Of a stretch of 32,000 bases of DNA, positions 3,237 to 31,987 are shown piece by piece. This DNA is from Candidatus Saccharimonadota bacterium (GTDB lineage Bacteria; Patescibacteriota; Gracilibacteria; UBA4473), in the NCBI GenBank assembly GCA_963677105.1, contig OY781871.1, positions 810,001 to 842,000 of the forward strand. Reading direction: 5' to 3'. The notes under the pieces were generated by a model. That model saw nothing but the letters and a program-made list of their open reading frames with translations, was not told the DNA's origin and made no database searches. Both the position numbers and the translations under genes were made by a program. Position 1 is the first letter of the stretch. Every line of letters starts with the position of its first letter.

Positions 3237-3283
3237 CCTCGAAAAAGTAGCATTTTTTTGAAATTTTGGCAAAATCTAAGAAG

Positions 3284-4789
3284 ATGAGGAAAATATTTTT
3301 GGCTTTCAGTATACTTGTTCTTACAAGTCTAAATTATACATACGCAGAAGAAAGTGCAGTTGAGATTGTAGAGCAGGTTTTACAACCAGTTATTACAGTT
3401 GATTCGTTTGTTCCAATAGGAGAAAAAGTTCTTTTTGATGCAACAAATTCAGGATTACTTGCGCCATCTGCAGGAGTACCAGTTTATGCATGGAATTTTG
3501 GTGATGGAAGTCGTATGAAATGGGGATCTCAAGTTGGATATCAATTTGATAAAGCAGGACGATACACAGTACGTTTACAATTACGACAAGGAAGACAGAG
3601 GGAAGTAATAGAGCGGACAATTTCAGTGTTTAATCGTCGAGCAGTATTAGTTGCAGATCCAGATTTTGATGCTTCAGGATTAATTGAACGTGCTGGAAAA
3701 TATGGAATTTGGCTTGATGTTATACCATTTTCACGTTCTGTTTCAGGAGTGACAGCAGATGAGCAATTTATGAAGAAACTGCAAATAAAACAATCGTTTA
3801 TTGAACAGGCAGATTTAATTATTTTTTACACAGAAAATTCAGGAGGAGTTCAGGGAGTTGCACAATGGTGGAAAGGGTTGCCAGAAGAAAATAGATTTAA
3901 TCCTACACATAAGTTTTGGGTTCAAGTCTCAACTGGATCACTTTCACAATTGCGGAAATTATCACAACCAGGATTTGGGATATTGCAACCAGAAAAAATA
4001 TTACTTACGCGACCAGAGGCGTTAGATGTCATTTTTGCTGCAGCAAAAATGGAATCAGTGGCAAATGAGTTGCGAGCAAGAGGTGTAGAATCTCAAATAT
4101 TAGATGATCGTGTGAGTGCATCATGGTTCTTGCCAATTTCTCGAACAATGACGTATTTCGTAACACATGGAGTAACGCAAAGTGTTCTCTTTTTATTGTT
4201 AGTAGTGCCTTTTATAACTTTTTTAATTGCGTTTGCTAGACAAGTTATTGGATTACGAACATTTGGTGTTTATGCCCCATTAATGCTGACTTTGTCGTTT
4301 ATTTTATTAGGATTTAGATTTGGTTTTGCCGTATTTTCTGTAGTATTGATTGTGAGTTATTTGATTCGATTATTATTCGATAAAGTTGAGTTGCTCTATA
4401 TTCCAAAAATTTCATTACTTTTGTCGGCATTAGCGCTTTCATTTTTTCTTGTTCTGGGAGTAGCAGTGCAATTTGATACACAAACAAATTTAGCATTAGC
4501 TGTTTTCCCGATGTTGGTAATGTCAACAATATCAGAGAAATTTTTGTCTGCACAATCTGAAGGAGGACTAAAATCAGCCGTACAAATAGCAGGAGAAACA
4601 GTAATCGTTTCATTATTGGCATTCATGTTTGTTCAGTGGAATTGGATGCAAAATTTAATACTTGCGTTTCCTGAAATAATGTTACTTCCAATTCTAGGAT
4701 GTATTTGGATTGGACGATGGACAGGATTGCGGTTGACTGAATATTTTCGGTTTTCAGCCTTATTTCGTGATGACTCCAGAGAAGAATGA
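3284..4789 (+). CDS. Secreted PKD-domain protein fused to a C-terminal 7TM module of the type usually fused to an inactive transglutaminase
   Basis: Signal peptide MRKIFLAFSILVLTSLNYTYAEE. PKD-like segment at nt 3386-3631 with WNFGDGS and GRYTVRL. About seven hydrophobic helices lie at nt 4172-4720, with RQVIGLRTFGVYAPLML and the terminal GRWTGLRLTEYFRF characteristic of that 7TM family. The track start at 3266 is TTG, so the ATG at 3284 is preferred. The stop overlaps the next start (ATGA). Confidence 0.75.
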   Translation: MRKIFLAFSILVLTSLNYTYAEESAVEIVEQVLQPVITVDSFVPIGEKVLFDATNSGLLAPSAGVPVYAWNFGDGSRMKWGSQVGYQFDKAGRYTVRLQLRQGRQREVIERTISVFNRRAVLVADPDFDASGLIERAGKYGIWLDVIPFSRSVSGVTADEQFMKKLQIKQSFIEQADLIIFYTENSGGVQGVAQWWKGLPEENRFNPTHKFWVQVSTGSLSQLRKLSQPGFGILQPEKILLTRPEALDVIFAAAKMESVANELRARGVESQILDDRVSASWFLPISRTMTYFVTHGVTQSVLFLLLVVPFITFLIAFARQVIGLRTFGVYAPLMLTLSFILLGFRFGFAVFSVVLIVSYLIRLLFDKVELLYIPKISLLLSALALSFFLVLGVAVQFDTQTNLALAVFPMLVMSTISEKFLSAQSEGGLKSAVQIAGETVIVSLLAFMFVQWNWMQNLILAFPEIMLLPILGCIWIGRWTGLRLTEYFRFSALFRDDSREE

Positions 4790-7089
4790 GTTTTTTTCAA
4801 CGAGCAAATCGGATATTAGGCATGAACGCGCGTAATCTAGAATACGTTGCTCGACACAATTCTTTTGCAGATAAAAAATTCGCAGATGATAAAATTTTTA
4901 CCAAAAATTTTTTGTCATCACGTGGTATTGGAGTGGCAAAATTATTTCATGTAATACGCTCTCATACACAAGTAACACCAGAGTTTATAAAATCTTTACC
5001 GAGTGCATTTGTTATAAAACCAAATCGTGGGTTTGGAGGAGGAGGAATTTATGTATTTTTGGAAAAACAAAATGAAAAATGGATCACTCCATCAGGAGAG
5101 AAGTTCGATGTAAATGATATTTTTCGTCATTGTATTGATATTTTAGAAGGAAAATATTCTATTTCGGGAGTACAAGACAGTGTTATTTTTGAAGAAGTAC
5201 TTGTGGCACATTCTGCATTTCGTTCTTTGACAGAAATAGGATTGCCAGATATTCGTGTAATTGTATTTAATCGTGTTCCAGTTTTAGCAATGTTACGAAT
5301 TCCGACAGAAGAATCTGAAGGAAAAGCGAATATGGAGCTTGGAGCATATGGAATGGGAATAGATTTATCTACCGGAAAAACTACTGGCGCAGCCTATCAT
5401 TCTAAATTTTTAAAAAAATTACCAAATGGAGAGCCTACAGTAGGATTTGAAGTTCCATTTTGGGACGAAATTTTATTAGCGGCAGCACGAGTACAACATA
5501 CAACAGGAATTGGGTTTTTAGGATGTGATTTTGTAGTGGTTCCATCAGGAGTAAAGGTGTTGGAAGTAAATGCTCGACCAGGATTAAAAATTCAAATAGC
5601 AAATAATACGCCGTTAAAACCTCGTTTGAAAAAAGTAGCAGATTTGAATATTGCGTCTCCAGAAGATGGAGCAAAAATAGCAAAACAATTATTTGCACAA
5701 ACTGTTTCAGTAGACTCATCAAAACCAAAACGAGAAGTAATCGGTGCGATTGAGTCAGTCGTATTAAATCTTTCTTCTCCAGAAATGGTATTAGCAAAAG
5801 TAGATTTAGGTGCCTCAGCGAACATTATTTCTGCTCGTTTTGCAACAGAGATAAAAGGTCTTTTGGACATAACAATTGGAGGACAACGTTTAAAATTACC
5901 AGTAAAAGAAGGGGAAACAGGGGAGTTTGACTTGCTCTTAGCTGGAAAATTTTTAACTGATTTTCTTATTGATGTGAACAAAAAAGTTGAACACTCTCCG
6001 GAGCTTATTGCTGCGGATTTAGATGAACGAAAATTAAAAAGTTTAGATGAAAAAGTATCAGAGATAGATGAGCAAATAAAACTTTTATCTGTTCTCAATC
6101 CGAGGAATTTATTGGAACAAAAAGAATTATTTTTTGCTCATAAAGATTATGTTCCTCGATTTCTTTATCGTGCTATTGAGTTAGACATTGATCGTTTTCG
6201 CAGAGAGTTAAAACGATTACCAACTAATATAGATCATATATTGGTTCCATTATTTAAAAATAAAATCCAAGAATTATCATATAAATTGGACTTAATTGAA
6301 GCACGAGAAACAGATCATTTTTCACAAGCCTCAGAAGTTTTATTTGGAAAAGTAACACAATCTCTGTATCGAGAAGCAGTAGATTTCATAAAGAAACATG
6401 CAAAAATTCTGGCAGACACGAGTTTAGTCGTTGATGCAAAGGGAGCGGCGGCGGTGGTTGAAAATTTTTGTAAGAAAAATAAATTGGGACATTGGACGGT
6501 TTCAATCATTAATGATTCTGTGGCAGATATGCAGGTTTCCAAAAAAGGGAAAGTGCTCATTCGGAAAGATGCGACCTTTACTGAAAACAGATTAACAGCG
6601 TTATTAGTACATGAAATTGGAACACATGTGTTTCGATTTGAAAATGGAAAACGACAAAAATTCCGATTATTTGAGCGTGGAACAGCTGGATATTTAGAAA
6701 CAGAAGAAGGATTGGCGATTTATAATCAAAACCAATTAGGACTTCCTTTAGGTGAAAAATTCCTTACGCCGGCATTATTGGTTGTTGCGATTTTCTTGGC
6801 GAAAAAGATGGGGTTTCGTGAGTTATTTGAAATTCTACAACAAACCTATTCTTTATCCGATGAAGTTGCATGGAAGCTGTGTGTAAAGGCAAAACGTGGA
6901 ACGGCGGATCAATCAAAACCAGGTTCATTTACTAAAGATTTGGCATATTTCAAGGGAGAACGTGCAATTGAAAAGTTCGTAGAAAATGGGGGAGATATTC
7001 AGAGTTTATACATTGGAAAAGTAACTATTGCTGATCTAAAAGCACTGAAAAAGTTTGATGACATGGTAAAGCCGAAATGGAGTTTATAA
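4786..7089 (+). CDS. Three-domain fusion: RimK-related (alpha-L-glutamate-ligase-like) ATP-grasp, retropepsin-like DUF785 domain, and DUF1704/QEGLA (MATCAP-like) metallopeptidase
   Basis: aa 1-290: ILGMNARNLEYVARHN..FADDKIFTKNFL, VIKPNRGFGGGGI and LEVNARPGL are ATP-grasp hallmarks. aa 317-399: MVLAKVDLGASANIISA ... DLLLAGKFLTDFLIDV resembles the DUF785 pattern AKIDTGA...LLGR..L..F.VD. aa 418-767: LNPRNLLEQKELFF..PRFLYR, HEIGTH (nt 6610-6627) and ETEEGLA (nt 6697-6717) match DUF1704/QEGLA. Confidence 0.8.
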   Translation: MSFFQRANRILGMNARNLEYVARHNSFADKKFADDKIFTKNFLSSRGIGVAKLFHVIRSHTQVTPEFIKSLPSAFVIKPNRGFGGGGIYVFLEKQNEKWITPSGEKFDVNDIFRHCIDILEGKYSISGVQDSVIFEEVLVAHSAFRSLTEIGLPDIRVIVFNRVPVLAMLRIPTEESEGKANMELGAYGMGIDLSTGKTTGAAYHSKFLKKLPNGEPTVGFEVPFWDEILLAAARVQHTTGIGFLGCDFVVVPSGVKVLEVNARPGLKIQIANNTPLKPRLKKVADLNIASPEDGAKIAKQLFAQTVSVDSSKPKREVIGAIESVVLNLSSPEMVLAKVDLGASANIISARFATEIKGLLDITIGGQRLKLPVKEGETGEFDLLLAGKFLTDFLIDVNKKVEHSPELIAADLDERKLKSLDEKVSEIDEQIKLLSVLNPRNLLEQKELFFAHKDYVPRFLYRAIELDIDRFRRELKRLPTNIDHILVPLFKNKIQELSYKLDLIEARETDHFSQASEVLFGKVTQSLYREAVDFIKKHAKILADTSLVVDAKGAAAVVENFCKKNKLGHWTVSIINDSVADMQVSKKGKVLIRKDATFTENRLTALLVHEIGTHVFRFENGKRQKFRLFERGTAGYLETEEGLAIYNQNQLGLPLGEKFLTPALLVVAIFLAKKMGFRELFEILQQTYSLSDEVAWKLCVKAKRGTADQSKPGSFTKDLAYFKGERAIEKFVENGGDIQSLYIGKVTIADLKALKKFDDMVKPKWSL

Positions 7090-11227: not shown

Positions 11228-11229
11228 CG

Positions 11230-11598: not shown

Positions 11599-11600
11599 GA

Positions 11601-11616: not shown

Positions 11617-11620
11617 GAAT

Positions 11621-14614: not shown

Positions 14615-14624
14615 AAAAAAAAGA

Positions 14625-15704: not shown

Positions 15705-15754
15705 CGACGAAAGAATAGCATGATTTTTTGTATGTGTCATTCTCCCAGAAAAAA

Positions 15755-21338: not shown

Positions 21339-21363
21339 ATTTATATTTACATAGGTTGTAAGA

Positions 21364-21383
21364 GGCGTAAATACGCCTTTTGT
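21364..21383 (+). terminator. Rho-independent terminator after the GlgA-like gene
   Basis: AGGCGT-AAAT-ACGCCT followed by TTTTGTG. Confidence 0.5.
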
Positions 21384-21434
21384 GTAATATTTTGCAATAC
21401 ATTTATTCTCCGAAAAAATTTAGTATTTGTACTT

Positions 21435-21466: not shown

Positions 21467-21495
21467 TTGCTTTTTGTCCTCTGATAGTCTATAAT
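21467..21495 (+). promoter_or_regulatory. Possible sigma-70 promoter for the small ORF / giant gene
   Basis: TTGCTT (21467-21472), a 17-nt spacer, then a perfect TATAAT (21490-21495). Confidence 0.35.
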
Positions 21496-21514: not shown

Positions 21515-21706
21515 ATGAAATCGAAAAAAACAGCTCAAAAGATAAAAATGGAATTAAAAGGCCAGGATCGAATGATGTCTGCATTGAAAGATATTATGAA
21601 AAAATATGCAAAACAAACGGAAACTTTTATCCAAAAAGAAGACTCAGATACGGTAGAACATTTGCTTCAAGAATTTCCTAATACCGAAAACGATGTCTCG
21701 CTTTGA
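21515..21706 (+). CDS. Small hypothetical protein (63 aa), overlapping the start of the giant ORF
   Basis: The ATG ORF encodes a helical-looking Lys/Glu-rich peptide. Its TGA (21704-21706) lies 14 nt inside the next gene. A competing frame (ATG 21506..21681) has a less protein-like sequence. Confidence 0.35.
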   Translation: MKSKKTAQKIKMELKGQDRMMSALKDIMKKYAKQTETFIQKEDSDTVEHLLQEFPNTENDVSL

Positions 21707-24700
21707 TTCGGATGAGAGGGAATACGTTCAAGATAGATTGAAAGAAATTAAAAAATCTCTGGATGATTTGAAGGCAGAAGTGGAAGTTTCTAGAAGTGAT
21801 GAAAAAAAGATTGAACGGAGAAGAAAGGAAATGAAGAAGATGGTGAAAGCGTGTAAGAAATCTCTTGGGCTGCGCAGACGAGAGTCTCTTACACGAGAGC
21901 AAAAAGAAGACTTACATCTTTTGTCTACAGAATTTTATAGTGAAGAATATGAAGATTTAGACAGATTTAAAGAAGAGTTTCAGGAATTATCTTCCCAGCA
22001 ACAGATAGAGTTTGCTTATAATCAAGTATCAATGTCTTGGAGAGAAAAACGAAGGTTTTTTGAAAATATGGAATTGTATCAAGAGACAGGAGTTCCTGTG
22101 GCAGATATATTAAAATTAGTCGCGATAGAAGAATATGTAGAACAGGGAGAAGTGAAACTGGATATTTTTGGAAATCAACATGCTCCTTGGAATACACCGA
22201 ATGTTATAGAAATATTACCAGGTGGCTTAGAAAAGGCTCGTACGGAAATATCAGGATATTATGAAGTAGCGCTTTTAGTTGCACCTTTTACCAATCCTAC
22301 AGAAATTCTGTATAAAATAGATAATTTATCAAATGAAATTGATCGACCAGAAGTACAAAAAATTATAGAAATTGTTCATCAAAAAAATCCTGAAGGGATT
22401 ATGAATGAGTATTCAGAAAAAAATCCTCGAGCATATATTGATAAGAAGAAAAATGCAGCAGATGTATTACTTCTTCCGGCACAAAATCCACAGACAGCAA
22501 AAGATTTCTTTTCTTATTTTAATACAATAATTAAAAACTCATTTACAGAGAATGATTCAGAGAATAATAAACGATTAGAATCTGTTTTAAAGACGGCGAG
22601 TGAAAATGTATCAGAAGAAGATGAAGCAATAACAGAATTAATCAATATTGTTCTTTCAAATAAAGAATGGAATTCTGCAGAAGAGAAAACAAAACAAATA
22701 ATTGAATCAATTTCGAATTATGATTTATCAAAAATTAAGATATACACAGAAACAAAAGAAGTTGATGTCGAAGCAGCTCCATTTCCGTCACTCATTATTC
22801 CTCATTTAGGATTTCGTTTAGCGTTATCATTATTTCCAGAAGTTTATCCTCAAATAAAAGAAATTACTGGCAATGAATTAGGAAAAAAAATAACAACGCA
22901 GATCATACAACAAAATTTGCAGAATCGAGAACGTGTAGATGAAGTGTTGACTTCAAGTAACGTAGGTACAATGACGAAGGATTCAGAAGAAGTGTACAAA
23001 GACAACAATGTATTAAAAATGTTTGCAGAGACGGGTGATTTGGATGAAATATTAAATTATGTAGAAACAATAGACGATAGTTATTGGTGTAAAGCTGTTA
23101 TATTAGAAAATTTTTCTTCCGAAATGAAACGGAAAGATTTTCAGAAAATAGATGAAGATGGAAATGGGGAAGACACAGTTGCTGAACTTCTGTTTTCACA
23201 ACTTTCTTTTAATGAGGCACAAAAACATTTTCCAGCTTATTGTGAAAAATTAGGAATAGAAAAAGCTTCAGTATTGATGAAACCAATTTTTGAAAAAGCG
23301 TGGAAAAATAATACATATAATTCAAGAAACAGTTTTACATTTCTTCTTGCTTATTGTACGGAAGACGCTGGATACACCGACGAAATTTTTTCAAGTCTTG
23401 TAAAAGTTATGATTGATATAGATCGACCAAGAGTGATACAAGAATATCATTATTTTAAAGGAGAAAATGGGAATTGGCCACAAGATCACGAAAAGAGATT
23501 TTGTTCTTCCATACAGGAATTAATACCTTCTTTGTGTGCGAAAGAATATGGGGATTATTTTGAGCAACGTAAAATACAGGAAGATTTGGAAGCACCAAAA
23601 TTGAATATTGATGAAATTCATCGGAGTGATCTCTCTGAAAATTTATTAACATATTATGAAAATTTTACTGAAGAATTGGGAAAAGAGGAAGGAGAAGAAG
23701 CATTTCGTTTACTGTTGCAAGAATCCGGAAAAGTAACATCGTTATTTTATAATTTAAATTGGGAAAAGTTTTCACAAGACAAACAAGAATTTTTTGTAAA
23801 AACATGGATTAAATTCGATTCAGAGAAGCCAATTTATCGCTTAAATAAAATGCCTGATAGTTTGCAAGCATTTGTTGTGGAAATTTATTCAGATAAATAT
23901 ATAGACCGAGTTGGAAGTAAGGGTATTTGTTCGATCTTACCAAAATATTACAAAAAGATATCAGAAACAGAGGGGACAGGGGAAGCACAAAGAAAGGTTG
24001 TGGAATTACTACAAACAATGTCGGATGTAGAAAAGGTTCTTGATTATCATTATTGGAATTATGAAATGCCAAAGGACTTACAAAAACTCGTTATAAAAAC
24101 AGTGGTTCCATTGGCGCCGGAAAAGATAATATCTAATTATGATGATGTTGATTATCGTATGCGTGAAAAGGAAGTGCTTCCAATTTTATTACAGGGACAT
24201 AGAGAGCTCTGTATAAAACATTTTGATAAAATAGATTCTTACTTACATGGTGTTGACGATTTAGTTATAGATAAATTTTTTGGGAATGATCCTCAAAAGA
24301 CAATGAAAGAAATTCTTCTTACAAAGAGTGGAGTCGAGAAATCTAAATTAGAGAAAATATTTTCTCAGGCAGCAAAAAAAGAATTTTCATTTTTTCCAGA
24401 GACCTATGGAAATAGAGCGTATTTGAATATTTCAAATCGGAAAAAGCAAACAATTATTCATAAGCCAAATGAAGAAAAGTTTTTGCATGCGTGTTTGGTA
24501 GAAATGGTTGGAACAGGGGGAAAAGCAGGACTGATATTAGAACTTCTTGAGCGTCAAGGGTTTAATGTAAATATGTTTGATGATGGAGATCAAGTGTGGT
24601 TTGAGAATCAAGAATTTCATGTTCAAAGAGCAAAAGATGAGAGTATTGAAAGAGTGACATTGTATTGTGCTCGAGAAGACTTAAAAGGTTTAGGAGATTG

Positions 24701-26621
24701 GGATAAGGATAGCTGTTTGAGGTCACTAGGAGAAAAAGAAATAGTAAAAAGGGCGAAGAGAGGCGCAATGGAAGAAGTATTAGAGAATCTTCCAAATGTG
24801 GATGGATATTTTAAGAGAGATTTTATAAAAATATTTAATAAGCTTTCGTACTCTTTTGCACTAGAAACACTTCCTGATGATAATCTGCCGAATGGAACGC
24901 CCGAAATAGATATTAGTAAAAATCAATTAAGATGTTTGGCTAAAGTGTATCCTGATTTTATTTTGAAAAATATAGAAGTGTTATTAAACAATCACTTTAT
25001 TAAAGTGAATTGTATAGATTTGCTAACCGGACTTGGACCTTTTTCACCAGAGCTTTTTTGGGAAAAATTTGAGGTTATAAAAAAATATGCATTAGAGACA
25101 CCAACCAAGAAAAAACATGGAAATAATTCACCGGATTATTCATTGATGTCGGATATGTTTCTAAAATTGGCAAAGCAAAAAGAGGGAGGAAAAGAAATAT
25201 TTAAAAATATGGGAATAGTGAAAGCGTGTGTAAGTAATGAGGAGTATTTAACAGAAATATTTAAAGGAGCTGCTAAAACAGCGCCAGCAAATGCGTTGAA
25301 ACAGGAAATACTTTCTGAATACAAAGATTTTCTACAGGGAAAAGAAATCATAAACAGAGCCATAGAGTATGCTGAAAATGATGAGAAATTTATGTCGATT
25401 TTTGTATCTGCTCCAACGTATTATACCGAGTCGTATAAAGAAAAACTTACGTCAATTGCTATTAGACATTCGGAAAAGACAATGGCAATCCTTCAATCTC
25501 AGGAAGTGAAAAATGTATGGGAAGGAGCTGGACTTACAAATGTAAGAGAATATTTTGTGAAACAAGTTGAGCGTGAACTCATTAAAAATGAAGTTTATAC
25601 ATTTATTGAAAATAATCCTTCAAAACACCCTCAAGATTTAAAATCGGACCCAACATTAGAATATTATCCAGAAATCAGAGATACATGGATTACTTCGAAT
25701 GAACATTTCAAAAGTAGACCAAAATTAAAACTTCGTTTTGATCCTTCTTGTCGAAAAGAATTAAATTCACCAAAAGCTATTAAACGAAGAAAACTCTTAA
25801 TTGCTCGATATTTGGGGTTGAGAAATAAAGATTTGAATCCATCAGATATTACTCCAGAAATGGTACAAGAAGCAGATTATAAAATATTTGAGGCAAAGCA
25901 AAAGAAATACAATAAGCCTTTATTTCAAGGACGAAATGTAATAGGATATTTCCCATCAAGTGATTTAGGAATAAAATTTGAGAATTTAAAACAAGCGATT
26001 GGTGCGCAACAAACAAATAAAAACGGAGAGGTATCAGGATCGTATATTGACTTTCAAAAAGGAGAAAGATTGAGTGACGGAGCACGTGATCAAATTATCA
26101 ATGCCGATCCGCCTCTTACTTTTATAACGCATAAACATAGTGCAAGTTCAACAGTGCGTGAACTTCAAGATGCATTAATAAAACGATGGGAAAGATTGAC
26201 AGCTGAAGGAGTAGAACCTTCAGAAGAAAATAGAGATTTTCTTGTTGTTGGAGGTTGTGGCATAACGGATGACCTTAGAGATGATCTTTGTAGAGCGATG
26301 AAAAAGAGAGGATATCCTATTCCAGATATTGTTGTAGAAACAGAATATGGACAATATGGATATGCTTATTACAAAAAAGAAAAAAATACGGAATTTGGAT
26401 CATCATTTTTGGATAGAGTAGTTTTTAATAAAAATCCTCAAAAAATTTCTACATTTGGAACTATGTGGGAAAATCGAGATAAATATTATGAGATGAAAGA
26501 CTCGAAAGGAAAATCTGTTCTTCCCGGAAATGCAACATTTTTAAGTGAAGATGAACTTGGGGAATTATTACAAATTGCAATGAATGAAGAAGATGGAGTT
26601 GATGAGTTTGTGAATGTTTAA
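21693..26621 (+). CDS. Giant hypothetical protein (1642 aa), no signal peptide or TM segment, function unknown
   Basis: Uninterrupted 4.9-kb ATG ORF with uniform coding-like composition, flanked by a promoter-like site and a strong terminator. No known family motif recognised by eye, apart from a weak His/Cys dyad pattern near the C-terminus. Confidence 0.8.
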   Translation: MSRFDSDEREYVQDRLKEIKKSLDDLKAEVEVSRSDEKKIERRRKEMKKMVKACKKSLGLRRRESLTREQKEDLHLLSTEFYSEEYEDLDRFKEEFQELSSQQQIEFAYNQVSMSWREKRRFFENMELYQETGVPVADILKLVAIEEYVEQGEVKLDIFGNQHAPWNTPNVIEILPGGLEKARTEISGYYEVALLVAPFTNPTEILYKIDNLSNEIDRPEVQKIIEIVHQKNPEGIMNEYSEKNPRAYIDKKKNAADVLLLPAQNPQTAKDFFSYFNTIIKNSFTENDSENNKRLESVLKTASENVSEEDEAITELINIVLSNKEWNSAEEKTKQIIESISNYDLSKIKIYTETKEVDVEAAPFPSLIIPHLGFRLALSLFPEVYPQIKEITGNELGKKITTQIIQQNLQNRERVDEVLTSSNVGTMTKDSEEVYKDNNVLKMFAETGDLDEILNYVETIDDSYWCKAVILENFSSEMKRKDFQKIDEDGNGEDTVAELLFSQLSFNEAQKHFPAYCEKLGIEKASVLMKPIFEKAWKNNTYNSRNSFTFLLAYCTEDAGYTDEIFSSLVKVMIDIDRPRVIQEYHYFKGENGNWPQDHEKRFCSSIQELIPSLCAKEYGDYFEQRKIQEDLEAPKLNIDEIHRSDLSENLLTYYENFTEELGKEEGEEAFRLLLQESGKVTSLFYNLNWEKFSQDKQEFFVKTWIKFDSEKPIYRLNKMPDSLQAFVVEIYSDKYIDRVGSKGICSILPKYYKKISETEGTGEAQRKVVELLQTMSDVEKVLDYHYWNYEMPKDLQKLVIKTVVPLAPEKIISNYDDVDYRMREKEVLPILLQGHRELCIKHFDKIDSYLHGVDDLVIDKFFGNDPQKTMKEILLTKSGVEKSKLEKIFSQAAKKEFSFFPETYGNRAYLNISNRKKQTIIHKPNEEKFLHACLVEMVGTGGKAGLILELLERQGFNVNMFDDGDQVWFENQEFHVQRAKDESIERVTLYCAREDLKGLGDWDKDSCLRSLGEKEIVKRAKRGAMEEVLENLPNVDGYFKRDFIKIFNKLSYSFALETLPDDNLPNGTPEIDISKNQLRCLAKVYPDFILKNIEVLLNNHFIKVNCIDLLTGLGPFSPELFWEKFEVIKKYALETPTKKKHGNNSPDYSLMSDMFLKLAKQKEGGKEIFKNMGIVKACVSNEEYLTEIFKGAAKTAPANALKQEILSEYKDFLQGKEIINRAIEYAENDEKFMSIFVSAPTYYTESYKEKLTSIAIRHSEKTMAILQSQEVKNVWEGAGLTNVREYFVKQVERELIKNEVYTFIENNPSKHPQDLKSDPTLEYYPEIRDTWITSNEHFKSRPKLKLRFDPSCRKELNSPKAIKRRKLLIARYLGLRNKDLNPSDITPEMVQEADYKIFEAKQKKYNKPLFQGRNVIGYFPSSDLGIKFENLKQAIGAQQTNKNGEVSGSYIDFQKGERLSDGARDQIINADPPLTFITHKHSASSTVRELQDALIKRWERLTAEGVEPSEENRDFLVVGGCGITDDLRDDLCRAMKKRGYPIPDIVVETEYGQYGYAYYKKEKNTEFGSSFLDRVVFNKNPQKISTFGTMWENRDKYYEMKDSKGKSVLPGNATFLSEDELGELLQIAMNEEDGVDEFVNV

Positions 26622-26683: not shown

Positions 26684-26712
26684 AAAAAAGAGCGGATTTT
26701 CCGCTCTTTTAA
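26684..26712. terminator. Bidirectional rho-independent terminator between convergent genes
   Basis: An A6 run, then GAGCGG (26690-26695), loop ATTTT, CCGCTC (26701-26706), then TTTTAAAAA. Confidence 0.65.
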
Positions 26713-26732: not shown

Positions 26733-27455
26733 TTATTCCATTGCTTGATTTACTCGCATAACAATACTTGGAAGTGCAGATCCTTGATCGTTGTATCCAT
26801 CTTTAAGAGAAAAGTTTTCTGTTTTTCCGTTTAATTCAAGTTGGAAAATATATGGATCATTGTCTCCGTCATAAGATTCTGGAGTGTGTCCAGCACCTTT
26901 TGCTTTTACAGGATCTGGATTCTTTGGAATATAAATTTTTCCCAATGTTCCAAGACCAATTTCATAACGACCATTTTTTAATGATGTGTTTGAAAAATCA
27001 ACATCACATTTTACTTGTTTTTTTAGATCGTCACAAAAGTCTTGAATATCAATTACTTCATTATTTTCTACATTTGCGGGGAGAGAGGTTCGTGCAACAT
27101 TCACAATTTCTTGACTATCAGTTACAGACAATGGATCCATTCCGAGCATATTTTCTGTTTGTCCGGCCTCCATTAAGTCTTCCATTAAATCAGTCCATTC
27201 ATCTTTTGTTGCTAATGCAGTTGCTAAGTCAGCTGCATCTTTCAGAATTGATTCATACATAAAGCGTATATTATCATTTTCTGATTCAGGGAGATTTGGT
27301 AAATCTGCTCCTCCATATTCAGCTTCTAATGAAAGAATGAAATTTGATTTTTCAAGAAATGCTTCTTTTGTTACATCCTCTAACCCAGCTACTCGAACGT
27401 ATTCATTTTCGAAGTTACTTTTTGAGGAAGCCGATAACGATTCACGATTATTCAT
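26733..27455 (-). CDS. Hypothetical acidic protein (240 aa)
   Basis: ATG ORF starting 13 nt after the stop of the upstream 568-aa gene. Asp/Glu-rich, with no signal peptide or known motif. Confidence 0.6.
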   Translation of the reverse strand: MNNRESLSASSKSNFENEYVRVAGLEDVTKEAFLEKSNFILSLEAEYGGADLPNLPESENDNIRFMYESILKDAADLATALATKDEWTDLMEDLMEAGQTENMLGMDPLSVTDSQEIVNVARTSLPANVENNEVIDIQDFCDDLKKQVKCDVDFSNTSLKNGRYEIGLGTLGKIYIPKNPDPVKAKGAGHTPESYDGDNDPYIFQLELNGKTENFSLKDGYNDQGSALPSIVMRVNQAME

Positions 27456-27468: not shown

Positions 27469-29175
27469 TTATTTGTTTCTTCGTGGTTTATTTCTCATTG
27501 CAGCTTGCATAATTTTTACATTAATTTTTGAAATATCTTTGGCTGCAATTATTTCTTTCTCTAAATATTGTCCTGTAACTTCTACATCTCCATTTTCTAA
27601 AACAGTACATTGATACTTATTTTTTCCTACTGTTTTTTCTACATTAGCCCCTCCTAAGAGTTCAACACTTTTTTTCTTTGTGCCAGTAGAAGTAACTTCC
27701 TTTTCTTCAGGTTTTTTTGGTTGTTCCTCCTTTTTAGCTGGTTTTTCTTCAGGTTTTTCGGGAATACTTTCTTTAGGTGATTCACTTCTATGAGCGCTTA
27801 AATGTCGTCTAATGCTTTCTTCTATAGATCCGGTATGAGGTCCCACAAGTATGAAATTTTGTTTGTCCTTCTCTTCTACTTTAATATTTCCACTTTCTAA
27901 AATTTCGCATTTAAATTTTTTACCATCAACTTTTTTGGTTTTCTTTTTTCCTTCCAAAAAGTCGATAGCTTCTTCACGTTTAATATAATTTTCTCGTTTT
28001 TCATTTGCAGTCTTTTTCATTTTTGCAATAACTTCTTCTGTTTTCTTCAAATAATTTGAAGCATCAGCCGCTGGGATAATAAGTTCATCCATTTTTCCCC
28101 ATGTTTTTTTGTCTTTCTTCTCTTTTTGCACTTCTACTTTTCCTGTTACTTGGATATCTCCATTTTTTAAAACTTCGTATTTTAAATTTCTATCAGGAGC
28201 CTCAACAGTCTTCTTTCTTGTTCCTAAGATATTAATACTTGCTTCCTTGCTTGGTTTGAATTCTTCCTTCGGTTTAGGCTCAGGTTTAGCAGCAGGTTTT
28301 GCTTCAGGATTTGCTTTCGGTTTAGGCTCAGGTTTAGCAGCAGGTTTTGCTTCAGGATTTGCTTTCGGTTTAGGCTCAGGTTTAGCAGCAGGTTTTGCTT
28401 CAGGATTTGCTTTCGGTTTAGGCTCAGGTTTAGCAGCAGGTTTTGCTTCAGGATTTGCTTTCGGTTTAGGCTCAGGTTTAGCAGCAGGTTTTGCTTCAGG
28501 ATTTGCTTTCGGTTTAGGCTCAGGTTTAGCAGCAGGTTTTGCTTCAGGATTTGCTTTTGGTTTAGGTTCAGGTTTAGCAGCAGCTTTATTTTGTGCTTCC
28601 ATAAATTTTTTTGCTCCGTCGCTTGTATAATCGTATTCTACATCAGCTGGATCTTGGATTTGAATTATAACGTCTTTTGTTGTGTCGTAATTTGGAGCTT
28701 TAGCAAACATTACTTTTTGTCCTGGGTGAATTAAATGTGCCCAGTTGTTTTCTTTTCCTCCAATAGTTCCTTGAATTCCTTCTTTTGCTGTTCCATTAGC
28801 ATTATAAAATTGAACAGTAGTTTTTGATGTAATATTAAATCGTCTTGCTTTCAGCATTTTTGCTCGATCTTTCCAAGATAAAGAAGAATCAATTCCTTTT
28901 ACACGAGCGGTTTCTGCTCTATCGAATCCATATGCAAGAGAAGCCAGGGTGTCTCCCTTTTTTACGGTTGTTGACATGGTATTAACTGCAAGATTTAGAT
29001 TAGTAAACTCTTTCAAATTATTAAGATCGGTTGAGATTTGATCTCTAATTTTGTTTTGTTCGGACGTTTCCCATTGTTTTGATGCATCAACTGCTGCATC
29101 TGTTCTTTTTTCTAAAATGAATAGAAAGGGGGAATGTCCTTTTTGTAAGCCGAAATCATGCGATAAATTTTTCAT
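27469..29175 (-). CDS. Modular repeat protein: LysM-like N-terminal region, Pro/Lys/Glu 16-aa tandem-repeat spacer, three C-terminal repeated modules
   Basis: TVKKGDTLASLAYGF ... IHPGQKVMF resembles the two ends of a LysM domain but carries a long insert. Then come six full copies plus one partial copy of AAKPEPKPKANPEAKP. Then three modules share K(Y/F)xCx(V/I)LE(N/S)G(D/N)(I/V)xV. Confidence 0.7.
   Translation of the reverse strand: MKNLSHDFGLQKGHSPFLFILEKRTDAAVDASKQWETSEQNKIRDQISTDLNNLKEFTNLNLAVNTMSTTVKKGDTLASLAYGFDRAETARVKGIDSSLSWKDRAKMLKARRFNITSKTTVQFYNANGTAKEGIQGTIGGKENNWAHLIHPGQKVMFAKAPNYDTTKDVIIQIQDPADVEYDYTSDGAKKFMEAQNKAAAKPEPKPKANPEAKPAAKPEPKPKANPEAKPAAKPEPKPKANPEAKPAAKPEPKPKANPEAKPAAKPEPKPKANPEAKPAAKPEPKPKANPEAKPAAKPEPKPKEEFKPSKEASINILGTRKKTVEAPDRNLKYEVLKNGDIQVTGKVEVQKEKKDKKTWGKMDELIIPAADASNYLKKTEEVIAKMKKTANEKRENYIKREEAIDFLEGKKKTKKVDGKKFKCEILESGNIKVEEKDKQNFILVGPHTGSIEESIRRHLSAHRSESPKESIPEKPEEKPAKKEEQPKKPEEKEVTSTGTKKKSVELLGGANVEKTVGKNKYQCTVLENGDVEVTGQYLEKEIIAAKDISKINVKIMQAAMRNKPRRNK
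28270..28585 (-). repeat. 48-bp tandem direct repeat, about 6.6 copies, in frame within the 568-aa CDS
   Basis: The unit CGGTTTAGGCTCAGGTTTAGCAGCAGGTTTTGCTTCAGGATTTGCTTT recurs at 28270, 28318, 28366, 28414, 28462 and 28510 with no differences seen by eye. The terminal copy at 28558 has two substitutions. Confidence 0.92.
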
Positions 29176-29330: not shown

Positions 29331-30050
29331 TTATTCAATATCTCCTTCCAAACGTTCTCCTCGATAAAGACGACGAAGTGAAATTCCTTTATATACATAA
29401 GGTTTTTTAACTCGGCGTTTATATGTAGAAGAAACTTGTTGGCGATTTGATAAATGATTTTTCCAGCCATCTGTTGTTTCTTGAGCTTCTAATCTTTTGG
29501 TTCGACTATTAGCCTCTGTGCTCCAAAATTCTCCCGATAGTTGTCCAGAACGATCCATTTCTGTCGCAGAACCGCTTTTTATTCCGCTTCGTGCATTTCG
29601 ACGACGACTCCAGTCTTCTTTATCTTTTGTTAGGCGACGAGAGTCTTGTAACAGGAATTTTTTTGTTGTTCCAAACGACATTGTTGTAGTAGTTCGTGTT
29701 GCGCGTTTTTCTTTTCCTAGACTTTTTTCTCTATCAGAGCCTCCTCGAGTAAGGGTTCCACTTCCAATACGTCGTCTTCCGAGCACAGAAGGTTTTTCAG
29801 TATTTTTCGTTGCTGGACGTGATTTTATTCGGCGTTGCCAACGACGTTTTAATACTTCCTCAGGACTTGCACCAGTTTTTTCTGATGAGTAATTTTTACA
29901 TGAATCAACAATTTTCCAGTCACTTGGAATTTCCTTAGTATCTGTGAAAACCTTACAAGTTCCGTGAGAATCAATTGCAGATTGTTTTACATCAACTGCA
30001 AGAGTTATTGTGGGCAACATGAGAGCTGTAATCAATAATAATTTTTTCAT
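29331..30050 (-). CDS. Secreted Arg/Lys/Ser/Thr-rich polycationic protein (239 aa)
   Basis: Signal peptide MKKLLLITALMLPTITLA-VD. A short two-Cys region is followed by low-complexity basic sequence (KRRWQRRIKSR, GRRRIG, SRRRNARS, KRRVKK). Confidence 0.6.
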   Translation of the reverse strand: MKKLLLITALMLPTITLAVDVKQSAIDSHGTCKVFTDTKEIPSDWKIVDSCKNYSSEKTGASPEEVLKRRWQRRIKSRPATKNTEKPSVLGRRRIGSGTLTRGGSDREKSLGKEKRATRTTTTMSFGTTKKFLLQDSRRLTKDKEDWSRRRNARSGIKSGSATEMDRSGQLSGEFWSTEANSRTKRLEAQETTDGWKNHLSNRQQVSSTYKRRVKKPYVYKGISLRRLYRGERLEGDIE

Positions 30051-30059
30051 AATTAATAA

Positions 30060-30914
30060 TTATTTTAAGGTTTCTTCTATCACGTCATCTTCATATCCAT
30101 TTACAGGAATATTTGTAGGAAGTGGGCGTTTTGTATATTTTTTCATAGACATTGGCCGTTGAAGTTTTATTTTTTTAGTAGCAGGATTTTCTTTTTTAAA
30201 ACGATTTAAAGATCGCACTGACCGATAAGTCGATAATTTTTTTATAGCTTCCTTTTGTGATGCGTCGGTAGTATTTAGTGAAACTTTTTTTTGTGAAATT
30301 TGTTTCGGTGTTTCATATCGTCTTTTTGTATTTGCTCGAATTGTCTTTGAGGTTGAAATATTGATTTTTGATGTAGGAGAAATGAGTTTTGCTTTACGTG
30401 ACTTTCTTATAGAGATTGTTCGTTTTGATTTTACTGGAACGAATCTTTTCGATTGGATTTGGATTTTCTTTTTGAATTCTTCTGGTTCTACTTTTTTTAC
30501 ATTAGAATTCGTAGAAGACTTAATAAGAGTAGGTTTTATTGATAATTCTTTCTTTTTTTCAGTCTCCATTAAATACTGTTTCTTTTCCATTTCTTTTTTC
30601 TCCTTCCAATCAATTTTTGTTTCTTCAGGAGTTTTATTTTCTGTTAAATATGGAATATTAATTTTCCGTGTTTTTCTTTCTTGATGTCTTATAGATGTTA
30701 CAACTGGTTTTTTTATCACAGTTTTCTGTTCTTGCATTTCTTCTTGTTCTTCGCTTATAGGCATTATTGTCATTGGATCACATATTTCCTGTTCCATAGA
30801 ATCATCACATATATGTTCTATCATTTCCTCAACAGAGATAGAGGCAGGTACATCATTTGTTGCAAACGCAAAAGTGGGGAAAATGATTACTGAAGCCAAA
30901 AGTATTTTATTCAT
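30060..30914 (-). CDS. Secreted Lys-rich polycationic protein (284 aa)
   Basis: Signal peptide MNKILLASVIIFPTFAFA-TN. An acidic two-Cys segment is followed by a long Lys-rich tract (KEKKEMEKKQ, FKKKIQIQSKR, IRKSRKAK). The stop lies 9 nt before the next start. Confidence 0.6.
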   Translation of the reverse strand: MNKILLASVIIFPTFAFATNDVPASISVEEMIEHICDDSMEQEICDPMTIMPISEEQEEMQEQKTVIKKPVVTSIRHQERKTRKINIPYLTENKTPEETKIDWKEKKEMEKKQYLMETEKKKELSIKPTLIKSSTNSNVKKVEPEEFKKKIQIQSKRFVPVKSKRTISIRKSRKAKLISPTSKINISTSKTIRANTKRRYETPKQISQKKVSLNTTDASQKEAIKKLSTYRSVRSLNRFKKENPATKKIKLQRPMSMKKYTKRPLPTNIPVNGYEDDVIEETLK

Positions 30915-30916
30915 GA

Positions 30917-31987
30917 TTAATTACGGTTACGGTTTAGTAGTCGATTTCGTAGTGCTTGGAGACGAGAAGCTCGTGTATTAGAACTTGATGAAGAAGTAGA
31001 TGTACTACTTTTTCGTTCTAATGAACGAAGTTCTTTTTGATATTGTTTAATTAAATTTTTTAATTCAGTTATTCGTGCCTTAATTTCACTACTTGTCTCA
31101 GGAGTAGCGGAAGTGGTTGTAGCACTTGTTGAATTCGAAGTGGTGGTGTCAGGAGTCGTTGTTCCACCAACATTGTAACGAATTCCTAAATTTCCACGCT
31201 TTAATACACGACGATTATAATTTGATTTTTGACGAGATGTAAATGCTGCTAGTGTTTTTGTGTTGATCGTTTCACTTTTTCCAAAGCGGGTAGTTCCTTT
31301 TTTGAAATATCCAGTAGCGTAATATTGTGTAGTTGGAGTTAATCCTTCAATGAAAGCAGTTGTAATATTTCTTGGTATAACAACTTCTGCAACAGGAGAA
31401 GAGAGATCATCATTTTCAGATAAAACAATTACAAATCCATCATAATCGTTCGAACTAATACTAGGTGTGGACCATTTAAAATGAATAGATGTATCAAATT
31501 TTTCAGCTCGTAATTTTCCAAAATTAAAAGCCATATCATCTGAAGAAGAATTATCAACAATAACAGGATCATTTGCTGCAATAAATTCAGAAGTGACATC
31601 TCCATTTGTTGCCCATTCCCATTTTAATATCTTAGATCCATTGTTTAGATATTTTTTTCGTCCATCAGTTTTCAACGAATATACACGGAAATAATATGTT
31701 TGGTTTCTATCAAATCCTGCTGATCGAAGTGTCAATGTGTTTTGATTTTTAGAGGCCTGATTTCGGTATAATTTGTCATTTCGAATGTCATTTTGTACGG
31801 TACTATATTGCAGAACATATCCGCCATTTTCATCAAACATTTCACTGTCAGTGAGTTTGTCCCATTCAATCAAAAGCTGATTACCAGCAGGTGTTACATC
31901 GAGATTTTCAATCTGTCCTGCAAAAACAATGGGAGAAACTAAGAAAGCAAACCCAAATACGAAAGCCATAGGAAAGAATCTTTTCAT
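30917..31987 (-). CDS. Secreted protein with two FN3-like domains, Thr/Ser-rich linker and basic coiled-coil tail
   Basis: Signal peptide MKRFFPMAFVFGFAFLVSPIVFA-GQ. FN3-like patterns LLIEWDKL...YVLQYS...YYFRVYSL and IHFKWSTP...FVIVLSEN...TTQYYATGYF. Then TTTPDTTTSNSTSATTTSATPETSS, followed by heptad-like EIKARITELKNLIKQYQKELRSLERK. Confidence 0.55.
   Translation of the reverse strand: MKRFFPMAFVFGFAFLVSPIVFAGQIENLDVTPAGNQLLIEWDKLTDSEMFDENGGYVLQYSTVQNDIRNDKLYRNQASKNQNTLTLRSAGFDRNQTYYFRVYSLKTDGRKKYLNNGSKILKWEWATNGDVTSEFIAANDPVIVDNSSSDDMAFNFGKLRAEKFDTSIHFKWSTPSISSNDYDGFVIVLSENDDLSSPVAEVVIPRNITTAFIEGLTPTTQYYATGYFKKGTTRFGKSETINTKTLAAFTSRQKSNYNRRVLKRGNLGIRYNVGGTTTPDTTTSNSTSATTTSATPETSSEIKARITELKNLIKQYQKELRSLERKSSTSTSSSSSNTRASRLQALRNRLLNRNRN

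What the first reader, a model, noticed from the sequence alone, without database searches (positions are those of the whole stretch)
21693..26621. Orphan 1642-aa cytoplasmic giant protein dominating an accessory-looking block
This single 4.9-kb ORF is about 15% of the window. It has no signal peptide or TM helix, and I could not find a Walker A, HExxH or other classical catalytic motif.

The sequence looks largely helical, with a charged coiled-coil-like N-terminus (residues 1-110, rich in K/E/R). It has its own promoter-like site and a strong bidirectional terminator, and it sits next to a cluster of secreted proteins.

Very large lineage-specific proteins in small genomes are costly, so they are probably functionally important. 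Candidate roles include scaffolds, effectors or host-interaction factors. I cannot assign a function.
Basis: partly seen in the sequence, partly recalled or inferred. Interest (0 to 1): 0.7.

Follow-up and report, generated by a model that had tools for sequence, protein, structure and literature searches.

The report
Giant protein ending in caspase-fold domain
The 1642-residue gene is real and very rare, and it is not featureless: its last ~240 residues are predicted to fold like a caspase-type cysteine protease with the catalytic histidine and cysteine kept, so it is most likely a large scaffold-tethered protease from an uncultured, small-genome (Peregrinibacteria-like) bacterium.

Summary
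The ORF at 21693..26621 (+) is confirmed as read: 1642 aa, with no signal peptide, TM helix, Walker A or HExxH. It is not a mis-assembly. An independent assembly (FLOH01000292.1) carries a colinear 2062-aa homologue flanked by the same two small genes.

It is nearly an orphan, but not fully. An exhaustive HMMER search of residues 470-1642 found 9 clusters including the protein itself. They share only the C-terminal ~330-390 aa. Members named in genome records are all Candidatus Peregrinibacteria/Peribacteria.

No Pfam, NCBIfam, PADLOC or PDB sequence match exists. AlphaFold models are confident (pLDDT 80-83). For a canonical short relative, the top 13 Foldseek PDB hits are caspases (E down to 8e-5, prob 1.00). 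The window's own model hits a clostripain-related C11 protease and a metacaspase-like protein (prob 0.96 and 0.90).

An invariant His1482 and Cys1522 follow consecutive strands 40 residues apart, which is the clan CD dyad. In the giant protein the usual GHG motif reads HKHS, and the hairpin after it is missing.

Best reading: a cytoplasmic protease on a lineage-specific scaffold, with a new sequence family inside a known fold. Activity is unproven. A conserved 63-aa ORF overlaps its start, so the gene is probably second in a bicistron.

The parts
21490..21495 (+). Perfect -10 hexamer TATAAT. The best -35 candidate is TTGCTT at 21467-21472 with a 17-nt spacer. Candidate promoter of the small-ORF/giant-ORF unit.
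   Evidence: Read from the sequence. It was not called by the consensus scan because the -35 hexamer matches only 3 of 6. It lies between the upstream terminator-like hairpin (21357-21384) and the small ORF.
21515..21706 (+). Conserved 63-aa ORF in a different frame, overlapping the giant ORF's ATG by 14 nt. Probable co-transcribed, translationally coupled small partner protein.
   Evidence: One search gives the ORF. A 53-aa homologue (43% identity, E 2e-7) sits 2 nt upstream of the 2062-aa homologue in L009. No significant Pfam match.
21693..26621 (+). Giant ORF of 1642 aa, including the stop codon.
21693..22022 (+). Residues 1-110: highly charged, Pro-free, coiled-coil-like N-terminus.
   Evidence: Composition. 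Sub-threshold coiled-coil Pfam matches. Conserved with P0002 residues 10-120. The first ~300 aa module is duplicated inside P0002 (third alignment).
22023..25436 (+). Residues 111-1248: lineage-specific scaffold region. No known domain was found and no structure was predicted here.
   Evidence: No Pfam, NCBIfam or PDB hits. Alignable only to P0002, at 33% identity N-terminally and 49% from residue 797. No internal repeats detected by BLAST.
24075..24722 (+). Residues ~795-1010: mid-protein block weakly conserved in other long family members. It includes the motif GFNVNMFDDGDQVWF.
   Evidence: BLASTP to P0003 gives E 2.8e-4. Alignment A7 columns ~960-1090. No family match.
25437..26618 (+). Residues 1249-1642: C-terminal module conserved across the whole family. 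It consists of a helical lead-in followed by an alpha/beta core.
   Evidence: hits P0002-P0009 all map here. (alignment A1). (AF2 model of residues 1310-1642: pLDDT 83.4, pTM 0.85).
25905..26618 (+). Residues 1405-1642: caspase-hemoglobinase (clan CD)-like alpha/beta core.
   Evidence: Strands and helices. Foldseek results.
26136..26138 (+). His1482, the putative catalytic histidine, two residues after the end of strand beta3. Context is THKHS, against GHG in most relatives.
   Evidence: Invariant in A1. Present in all 10 sequences that cover the column in A4. Position relative to strand 166-171 of the model. Coordinates.
26256..26258 (+). Cys1522, the putative catalytic nucleophile, directly after strand beta4 (LVVGGC).
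   Evidence: Invariant in A1, A3, A4, A5 and A6. Strand 207-212 of the model. Coordinates.
26343..26345 (+). Glu1551, an invariant acidic residue on the loop right after strand beta5 (motif SEYGQ). Candidate S1-pocket residue.
   Evidence: Invariant. The role is inferred by analogy with MALT1 Glu500 on loop L5 (PMC4357240). Geometry was not checked.
26686..26710 (.). Bidirectional intrinsic-terminator-like hairpin between the convergent giant ORF and the 240-aa ORF.
26733..27455 (-). Convergent 240-aa ORF with no signal peptide. It co-occurs with the giant gene in both genomes. Possible partner, or merely syntenic.
   Evidence: 50% identical to the 241-aa ORF directly downstream of the 2062-aa homologue. 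Found only in those two genomes. No Pfam family.

Best explanation
The gene encodes a ~190-kDa cytoplasmic multidomain protein. A long N-terminal region (residues 1-~1250: a charged coiled-coil followed by a lineage-specific scaffold) carries a C-terminal module (residues ~1250-1642). That module defines a small, previously unannotated protein family found in Candidatus Peregrinibacteria.

The core of the module (residues 1405-1642) adopts the caspase-hemoglobinase fold of clan CD cysteine peptidases. His1482 follows strand beta3 and Cys1522 follows strand beta4.

The most likely mechanism is regulated endoproteolysis. The Cys thiolate, activated by the His, attacks a substrate peptide bond. 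The invariant Glu1551 on the loop after beta5 may favour a basic P1 residue. The N-terminal scaffold would recruit or position substrates or partners, following the logic of separase or TPR-CHAT proteases. Self-cleavage is an alternative.

The gene is probably expressed as the second cistron behind a conserved 63-aa protein, which may regulate it.

Shown: the gene is real; its homologues; the conserved residues; the predicted fold.
Inferred: catalytic activity, specificity, the scaffold's role, and the role of the small ORF.
For: 1. The gene is real and colinear in two assemblies. P0002 (2062 aa) aligns from the N-terminus (33% identity, E 1e-51) to the C-terminus (49% over 851 aa). The flanking 63/53-aa and 240/241-aa genes are also conserved.
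2. An exhaustive HMMER search found 9 clusters including the protein itself, and all hits map to the C-terminal module.
3. In alignment A1, His1482, Cys1522, Asp1515, Glu1551, Arg1498 and three prolines are invariant despite 23-34% identity. Cys and Glu remain invariant with 12 sequences.
4. AF2 models are confident: pLDDT 83.4 / pTM 0.85 for the window's residues 1310-1642, and 79.6 / 0.82 for relative P0009.
5. The order of secondary-structure elements is beta1-alpha-beta2-alpha-beta3-[His]-alpha-beta4-[Cys]-alpha-beta5. In P0009 a small beta-section sits between beta3 and alpha3. This matches the description of caspases in PMC4357240.
6. Foldseek PDB search with the P0009 core: ranks 1-13 are all caspases (E 8e-5 to 9e-3, prob 0.90-1.00, TM 0.38-0.46). 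GPI transamidase, legumain (C13) and RTX CPD (C80) follow.
7. Foldseek BFVD search with the window's own model: the highest-probability hits are a clostripain-related C11 protease (0.96) and a metacaspase-like protein (0.90, TMt 0.44). The PDB search also lists MARTX CPD, clostripain and caspase-6.
8. The His-to-Cys spacing of 40 residues with one helix between matches caspase-7 His144/Cys186, PmC11 His133/Cys179 and MARTX CPD His91/Cys140.
9. Native codon usage, and no relatives in phage, plasmid or viral collections, argue for a resident chromosomal gene.
Against: 1. There is no sequence-level match to any clan CD family: Pfam at E<=1, PDB profile search, and hhalign against caspase-3 at prob 0.3%.
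2. TM-scores are modest (0.3-0.46). With the window's own model no PDB hit reaches E<=1e-3, and generic flavodoxin-like or B12-binding folds rank first.
3. In the giant protein and P0002 the GHG motif reads HKHS, and the beta-section after the His is deleted. The domain could therefore be a pseudo-protease.
5. The N-terminal 1250 aa were neither modelled nor matched to anything, so 'scaffold' is an assumption.
6. Synteny of the three genes rests on only two related genomes.
Confidence: 0.55

Rival explanations
1. Pseudo-protease scaffold. The caspase-like domain of the giant protein has lost catalysis and serves only as a binding or structural module. The whole protein would be an architectural or cytoskeletal scaffold, possibly linked to the nearby ftsA/ftsZ genes.
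For: - The His-flanking glycines are replaced (THKHS against GHG), and the beta-section after the His is deleted in the three long proteins P0001, P0002 and P0003.
- The coiled-coil N-terminus and the very long non-enzymatic region fit a structural role.
- ftsZ and ftsA lie 2-4.6 kb upstream on the opposite strand.
- Non-catalytic caspase-like domains are known in other proteins (established knowledge: Raptor, and the separase pseudo-protease domain).
Against: - His1482 and Cys1522 are strictly retained in every member, including the giants. That is not expected after loss of catalysis.
- P0005, which is 1389 aa, keeps GHG and the insert, so large size and an intact motif coexist.
- In L009 the homologue is not next to ftsA/ftsZ, so that proximity is not conserved.
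Confidence: 0.25
2. Self-processing exported effector or toxin. Like MARTX or large clostridial toxins, the clan CD domain would cleave the giant protein itself after delivery to a host cell of this presumably episymbiotic bacterium, releasing N-terminal effector modules.
For: - Foldseek lists the MARTX/RTX cysteine protease domains (7d5y at rank 13; 3eeb at ranks 29 and 47).
- The genome is small (962 kb contig) and Peregrinibacteria-like, consistent with a host-dependent lifestyle.
- Secreted-looking proteins lie 2.7-5.4 kb downstream.
- The N-terminal region evolves fast and by module duplication, as effectors often do.
Against: - There is no signal peptide, TM segment or recognisable secretion signal.
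- Caspases, not C80 domains, are the best structural matches.
- Short 390-550-aa family members sit among housekeeping genes with no secretion genes conserved nearby.
- No toxin or effector domain was detected.
Confidence: 0.1
3. Effector of an anti-phage or conflict system: a CHAT-like or caspase-like protease fused to a large sensor, triggered by infection.
For: - Caspase-fold proteases fused to large helical sensors are common in bacterial immunity (established knowledge: TPR-CHAT/Csx29, and the proteases that activate bacterial gasdermins).
- One short family member (L006) lies next to NYN and Schlafen/AlbA_2 genes.
- The family has a lineage-restricted, patchy distribution.
Against: - There are no significant PADLOC hits; the best is Csx21 at E 0.011 with no stretch passing on its own.
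- There is no NTPase motif.
- The neighbourhoods of family members are not conserved and are mostly housekeeping genes.
- There are no relatives on phages, plasmids or viral contigs.
- Codon usage is native.
Confidence: 0.07
4. Artefact: a chimeric or mis-assembled ORF, or several genes fused by sequencing error.
For: None found. Only the unusual length and the lack of annotation could suggest it.
Against: - A colinear full-length homologue exists in an independent assembly, with the same flanking genes.
- Composition and codon usage are uniform.
- The chance of such an ORF arising at random is about 1e-66.
Confidence: 0.01

Closest known systems
Clan CD cysteine peptidases in general: caspases and metacaspases C14, clostripain C11, legumain and GPI transamidase C13, gingipain C25, separase C50, MARTX CPD C80 (as reviewed in PMC4357240)
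   Same: - The predicted alpha/beta fold and the order of secondary-structure elements.
- His after beta3 and Cys after beta4, about 40 residues apart.
- A GHG-type motif and a small beta-section after the His in most family members.
- Structural hits to C14, C11, C13 and C80.
   Different: - There is no detectable sequence similarity to any of these families.
- The family has its own signature: LFxGRNV on beta1, PPLTF-x2-GHG, RD-x4-GGC, P-x-P, SEYGQYGY.
- A conserved ~150-aa helical lead-in is part of the module.
- In the window protein the motif reads HKHS and the beta-section is missing.
Separase (family C50)
   Same: The overall architecture and size class: more than 1000 aa of N-terminal non-catalytic region followed by a C-terminal caspase-fold domain, in a cytoplasmic protein (PMC4626109 abstract). 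In addition, a small protein is encoded immediately upstream, which loosely recalls a securin-type partner.
   Different: - No sequence homology was found, and separase is eukaryotic.
- Separase did not appear among the Foldseek hits listed.
- The helical-repeat nature of the window protein's N-terminus was not demonstrated.
- The role of the small ORF is unknown.
CHAT-domain proteases with TPR or other helical sensors (for example Csx29 of type III-E CRISPR systems)
   Same: A bacterial caspase-fold protease fused to a large N-terminal non-catalytic region. This is resemblance by architecture only, from established knowledge.
   Different: - There is no Pfam CHAT (PF12770) hit at E<=1.
- There are no TPR hits.
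- There is no CRISPR or defence context.
MARTX / TcdA-TcdB cysteine protease domain (C80)
   Same: A clan CD domain embedded in a giant protein. Weak structural hits were found.
   Different: - The C80 domain is activated by InsP6 and has a beta-flap. Neither feature could be tested.
- Those toxins are secreted, whereas this protein has no export signal.
- Caspases are the better structural matches.

Membership tests
Clan CD (caspase-hemoglobinase fold) cysteine peptidases | [quoted passage not shown] | tested here: met
   Family representative P0009 core (AF2 pLDDT 79.6): the top 13 Foldseek PDB hits are all caspases, with E 8e-5 to 9e-3 and prob 0.90-1.00. Legumain, GPI transamidase and RTX CPD follow. 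Window's own model (pLDDT 83.4): BFVD hits to a C11 protease (prob 0.96) and a metacaspase-like protein (prob 0.90). In the PDB search the clan CD hits are only weak, at ranks 13, 21 and 26.
Clan CD (caspase-hemoglobinase fold) cysteine peptidases | Catalytic His on the loop after beta3 and catalytic Cys on the loop after beta4, with His preceding Cys in the sequence | tested here: met
   Invariant His1482 lies two residues after model strand 166-171. Invariant Cys1522 lies directly after strand 207-212. The two are 40 residues apart. The definition comes from PMC4357240.
Clan CD (caspase-hemoglobinase fold) cysteine peptidases | His-Gly dipeptide, and a small beta-section between beta3 and alpha3 | tested here: not met
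   The window protein has H-S (THKHSASS) and lacks the insert. Most relatives (P0005, P0006, P0007, P0009, P0010, and the L006 and L008 ORFs) have GHG and the insert. In P0009 the insert forms strands 81-85 and 88-91.
Clan CD (caspase-hemoglobinase fold) cysteine peptidases | Central sheet order 2-1-3-4-5-6 with beta6 antiparallel, and the His and Cys side chains adjacent in space | not testable with these tools
   Model coordinates are not exposed. Only the linear order of the secondary-structure elements and the Foldseek scores are available.
Clan CD (caspase-hemoglobinase fold) cysteine peptidases | Cysteine-dependent peptidase activity | not testable with these tools
   This needs biochemistry.
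Named clan CD sequence families in Pfam (Peptidase_C14, CHAT, C11, C13, C25, C50, C80) | A match to the family HMM at or near the gathering threshold | tested here: not met
   No such family appears even at E<=1 for the window protein, or at E<=0.5 for seven relatives. The PDB profile search is empty of peptidases. hhalign against caspase-3 gives prob 0.3%.
Separase-like architecture | A long helical-repeat N-terminal region plus a C-terminal caspase-fold domain | tested here: inconclusive
   The C-terminal caspase fold is supported. No repeats were detected by BLAST.
P-loop NTPase-coupled giant proteins (STAND, AAA+, dynamin-like) | Walker A motif GxxxxGK[ST] | tested here: not met
   The regex search found none. 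The GTGGKAG stretch at residues 940-946 is not a Walker A and is not conserved in P0003.
Known anti-phage defence proteins (PADLOC-DB) | A match to a PADLOC model | tested here: not met
   The only match is Csx21 at E 0.011, with no stretch passing on its own.

The most novel reading that the evidence does not exclude
A bacterial analogue of the separase/securin arrangement. A giant cytoplasmic scaffold would hold a caspase-fold protease that is kept in check by a co-translated 63-aa partner and cleaves a specific structural target, for example in cell division or host attachment. If so, this Peregrinibacteria-specific family would be a new, independently evolved branch of clan CD with a dedicated small-protein regulator.
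Probability: 0.08. Interest if true: 0.85.

Novelty: new variant of a known kind. Interest (0 to 1): 0.5.

Why it matters
[quoted passage not shown] A gene taking 0.5% of a 962-kb genome is a large investment.

This work turns an unannotated ORF into testable hypotheses. The protein ends in a caspase-fold domain with an intact His-Cys dyad, and that domain defines a family seen so far only in Peregrinibacteria. The hypotheses cover protease activity, substrate identity, and regulation by the small upstream protein.

It also adds a sequence family to clan CD that current Pfam, NCBIfam and PADLOC profiles miss. If the protein is active, it would be one of the few candidate regulatory proteases in these organisms, and a possible handle on their cell biology or host interaction.

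Tried and rejected
- Sequence-family searches on the whole protein returned nothing significant: Pfam, NCBIfam, PADLOC and PDB sequences. The same was true for seven relatives and the neighbouring ORFs, and for a profile of the C-terminal module against PDB sequences.
- The word-indexed protein search with the full protein returned only the protein itself. With alignment A1 it returned only P0009 and P0010.
- Looking up the protein's own contig by exact match failed.
- hhalign of the family profile against human caspase-3 gave no signal, with prob 0.3%. The caspase-3 sequence was recalled from memory and verified.
- The first genome contigs attempt failed for lack of conserved columns. The second found nothing. 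The third, with short-member patterns, found 4 loci.
- The metagenome scan found only the already known FLOH01 contig.
- No relatives were found in viral contigs, plasmids or phages.
- Internal repeats by self-BLAST: none.
- Literature look-ups for the assembly accession and for the contig length found nothing.
- A Walker A reading of GTGGKAG (residues 940-946) was rejected: it does not fit the motif and is not conserved.
- A frameshift fusion of the 63-aa ORF with the giant ORF was rejected. In both genomes the two are in different frames and each has its own stop and start.
- Recent horizontal acquisition was rejected on codon usage.
Full report
**1.
The ORF listing and translation give one uninterrupted ORF at 21693..26621 (+), with an ATG start and 1642 aa. 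Given the ORF's own base composition (39% A, 28% T), a stop is expected every ~11 codons. The chance of 1642 stop-free codons is about 1e-66.

The protein has no hydrophobic segment above Kyte-Doolittle 1.31 over 19 residues. It has no Walker A, HExxH, GxGxxG or CxxC. Residues 1-100 are 53% charged, with no proline. Only sub-threshold coiled-coil Pfam families touch them.

The hairpin at 26686-26710 is a good bidirectional terminator, and another terminator-like hairpin at 21357-21384 closes the upstream gene. GC3 (0.21) and RSCU correlation with ftsZ, ftsA, argS and similar genes (0.75) are in the range of the neighbours. The gene therefore looks native.

**2. Genomic setting.**
The window carries ftsZ, ftsA, a stand-alone 5'-3' exonuclease, argS, argG, prfA, a PP-loop (TilS-like) protein, an NlpC/P60-SLH protein and three tRNAs. 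GC is about 34%. The protein is recorded on a single 962,416-bp contig.

Every family member that could be placed in a named genome is from Candidatus Peregrinibacteria or Peribacteria. The source is therefore most likely a small-genome bacterium of the candidate phyla radiation related to Peregrinibacteria. This is an inference; the window's own genome was not found in the species-representative collection.

**3. Not a mis-assembly, and not a strict orphan.**
An exhaustive HMMER scan of residues 470-1642 against 1.84 billion representatives found 9 proteins including the protein itself.

P0002 (2062 aa) comes from assembly GCA_900089805.1, contig FLOH01000292.1. It is colinear with the window protein from end to end:
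- 33% identity over residues 12-437;
- 25% over residues 451-635;
- 49% over residues 797-1639.

Its extra length comes partly from a duplication of the first ~300-aa module (third alignment).

The flanking genes are conserved too:
- A 63-aa ORF (21515..21706) overlaps the giant ORF's ATG by 14 nt. It has a 53-aa homologue 2 nt upstream of P0002's gene (43% identity).
- The convergent 240-aa ORF (26733..27455) has a 241-aa homologue at the same position (50% identity). It is found nowhere else.

Genes further out differ between the two genomes. A perfect TATAAT at 21490-21495 precedes the small ORF. The giant gene is therefore probably the second cistron of a two-gene transcript.

**4. The conserved part is the C-terminus.**
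All other hits align only to residues ~1250-1642. These are P0003 (1514 aa), P0005 (1389 aa), P0007 (710 aa), P0009 and P0010 (531 and 549 aa), P0006 (390 aa), two fragments, and ORFs of 540 and 972 aa in L006 and L008.

The family is thus a C-terminal module behind N-terminal regions that vary from ~60 to ~1700 aa. Despite 23-34% identity, the alignment has invariant positions: His1482, Cys1522, Asp1515, Glu1551, Arg1498, Pro1474, Pro1542 and Pro1544. Cys and Glu stay invariant with 12 sequences.

Family signatures are:
- LFxGRNV;
- PPLTF-xx-GHG;
- RD-x4-GGC;
- P-x-P;
- SEYGQYGY.

**5. Fold.**
Two AlphaFold2 models were made:
- The window's residues 1310-1642, with the 7-sequence alignment: pLDDT 83.4, pTM 0.85.
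- The alpha/beta core of the short relative P0009, with 10 sequences: pLDDT 79.6, pTM 0.82.

Both show the same order of elements: beta1-alpha-beta2-alpha-beta3-alpha-beta4-alpha-beta5, then a beta-hairpin. The invariant His comes just after beta3 and the invariant Cys directly after beta4. P0009 also has a small beta-section between beta3 and the next helix.

This is the description of the caspase fold and its dyad in the clan CD review PMC4357240. That review describes a six-stranded sheet, His on L3, Cys on L4, and a small beta-section between beta3 and alpha3. It gives His/Cys spacings of 42-49 residues in caspase-7, PmC11 and MARTX CPD. The spacing here is 40.

Foldseek results:
- For P0009, ranks 1-13 are caspase-7, -3, -11, -4, -1, -6 and -9 (E 8e-5 to 9e-3, prob 0.90-1.00, TM ~0.4). 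GPI transamidase, legumains and the V. cholerae RTX protease domain follow.
- For the window's own model, the PDB search is dominated by generic three-layer alpha/beta folds. Clan CD members appear only at ranks 13 (MARTX CPD), 21 (clostripain) and 26-27 (caspase-6).
- Against the viral structure library, the two highest-probability hits for the window's own model are a clostripain-related C11 protease (0.96) and a metacaspase-like protein (0.90).

I take the fold assignment as well supported for the family. For the window protein it follows by homology, with weaker direct structural evidence.

**6. What is not met.**
No clan CD sequence family is detected by any profile method. This is membership of the fold, or clan, and not of a named family.

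In the window protein and P0002, the glycines flanking the His are replaced (THKHS). In P0003 only the following Gly is replaced (GHA). In all three the beta-section after the His is deleted. The catalytic pair is nevertheless strictly kept. Whether the giant version is active or a pseudo-enzyme cannot be decided here.

**7. The mechanism I commit to.**
I read this as a cytoplasmic cysteine endopeptidase tethered to a scaffold (confidence ~0.55).
- The His1482/Cys1522 dyad performs the catalysis.
- The invariant Glu1551 sits on the loop after beta5. In MALT1, Glu500 occupies that loop and sets Arg specificity. This suggests a basic P1 preference. It is an inference, and the geometry was not checked.
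- The N-terminal ~1250 aa would provide substrate or partner recruitment, or oligomerisation through the coiled-coil.
- The co-encoded 63-aa protein is a candidate regulator.

Rivals are:
- a pseudo-protease scaffold (0.25);
- a self-processing exported effector of the MARTX type (0.10);
- a defence-system protease (0.07);
- an artefact (0.01).

Arguments against the defence and mobile-element readings:
- no significant PADLOC hit;
- no NTPase motif;
- non-conserved, mostly housekeeping neighbourhoods around family members;
- no relatives in phage, plasmid or viral collections.

Arguments against export:
- there is no signal or TM segment;
- caspases are better structural matches than C80 domains.

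**8. Comparison with what is known, and novelty.**
It works like clan CD peptidases. In architecture it resembles separase and TPR-CHAT proteases, which have a very long non-catalytic N-terminus and a C-terminal caspase-fold domain. It is not a sequence member of any of them.

I rate it a new variant of a known kind: a new, narrowly distributed sequence family within a known fold, in an unusual giant form. Divergent caspase-fold families are found regularly, so a specialist would be interested but not astonished. The size of the protein in a 0.96-Mb genome, the degenerate His motif and the conserved small upstream ORF add some interest. Interest: 0.5.

**9. Limits.**
- Model coordinates could not be inspected.
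- The N-terminal 469 residues were not covered by the exhaustive search.
- Synteny rests on two genomes.
- The source organism's name was not recovered.

Noticed in passing
window 3266-7089 (+): Two overlapping genes. The first is a PKD plus 7TM_transglut membrane protein (3266..4789). The second is a 767-aa fusion of a 'sugar-transfer associated' ATP-grasp domain with a MATCAP-type domain (microtubule-associated tyrosine carboxypeptidase family, E 1e-44) (4786..7089). An ATP-grasp ligase fused to a MATCAP-like peptidase suggests a cycle that adds and removes peptide or amino-acid tags.
   Followed up: no
window 28268-28587, inside ORF 27469..29175 (-): A near-perfect 48-bp tandem repeat of 6.7 copies (98% matches). 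It encodes PEPKPKANPEAKPAAK repeats in a 568-aa protein that has a sub-threshold LysM-like N-terminal motif and no clear signal peptide.
   Followed up: partly
window 29331-31987 (-): Three consecutive ORFs of 239, 284 and 356 aa. All have signal-peptide-like N-termini and very basic, low-complexity, Ser/Thr/Lys/Arg-rich C-terminal halves. None has a Pfam family.
   Followed up: no
L009 11480-12200 (P0002 residues ~493-735): The 2062-aa homologue contains an internal duplication of the N-terminal ~300-aa module (coiled-coil plus the 'QQIEF...EEYVExGEVKLD' region). This accounts for part of its extra 420 aa.
   Followed up: partly
window 24480-24640 (protein residues ~930-985): A short block (GKAGLILELLERQGFNVNMFDDGDQVWFENQEFHVQR) is recognisably conserved in all four long family members (P0001, P0002, P0003, P0005), but not in the short ones. 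It may mark a second small domain specific to the giant forms.
   Followed up: partly
window 11142-11694: A cluster of tRNA-Leu(TAA), tRNA-Leu(TAG) and, on the opposite strand, tRNA-Cys(GCA). It sits in the window's most GC-rich kilobase.
   Followed up: no
window 13691-15782 (-): The NlpC/P60 + SLH ORF, as listed from its GTG start, overlaps the 3' end of prfA by 77 nt (14625-14701). The true start is probably further downstream.
   Followed up: no
L006 6355-8656: In one Peribacteria MAG, the 540-aa family member is preceded by a Schlafen/AlbA_2-HATPase_c_4 protein and a NYN-domain nuclease. That pair is reminiscent of conflict systems. The arrangement is not seen at the other loci.
   Followed up: no
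L001, L003 and L004, genes upstream of P0009 and P0010: In these MAGs the family member directly follows a PLP-dependent decarboxylase gene, and overlaps it by 50 nt in L003 and L004. Two FG-GAP genes follow it: one with a polysaccharide-deacetylase domain, then one with a YkuD domain. This local synteny differs from that of the giant forms.
   Followed up: no
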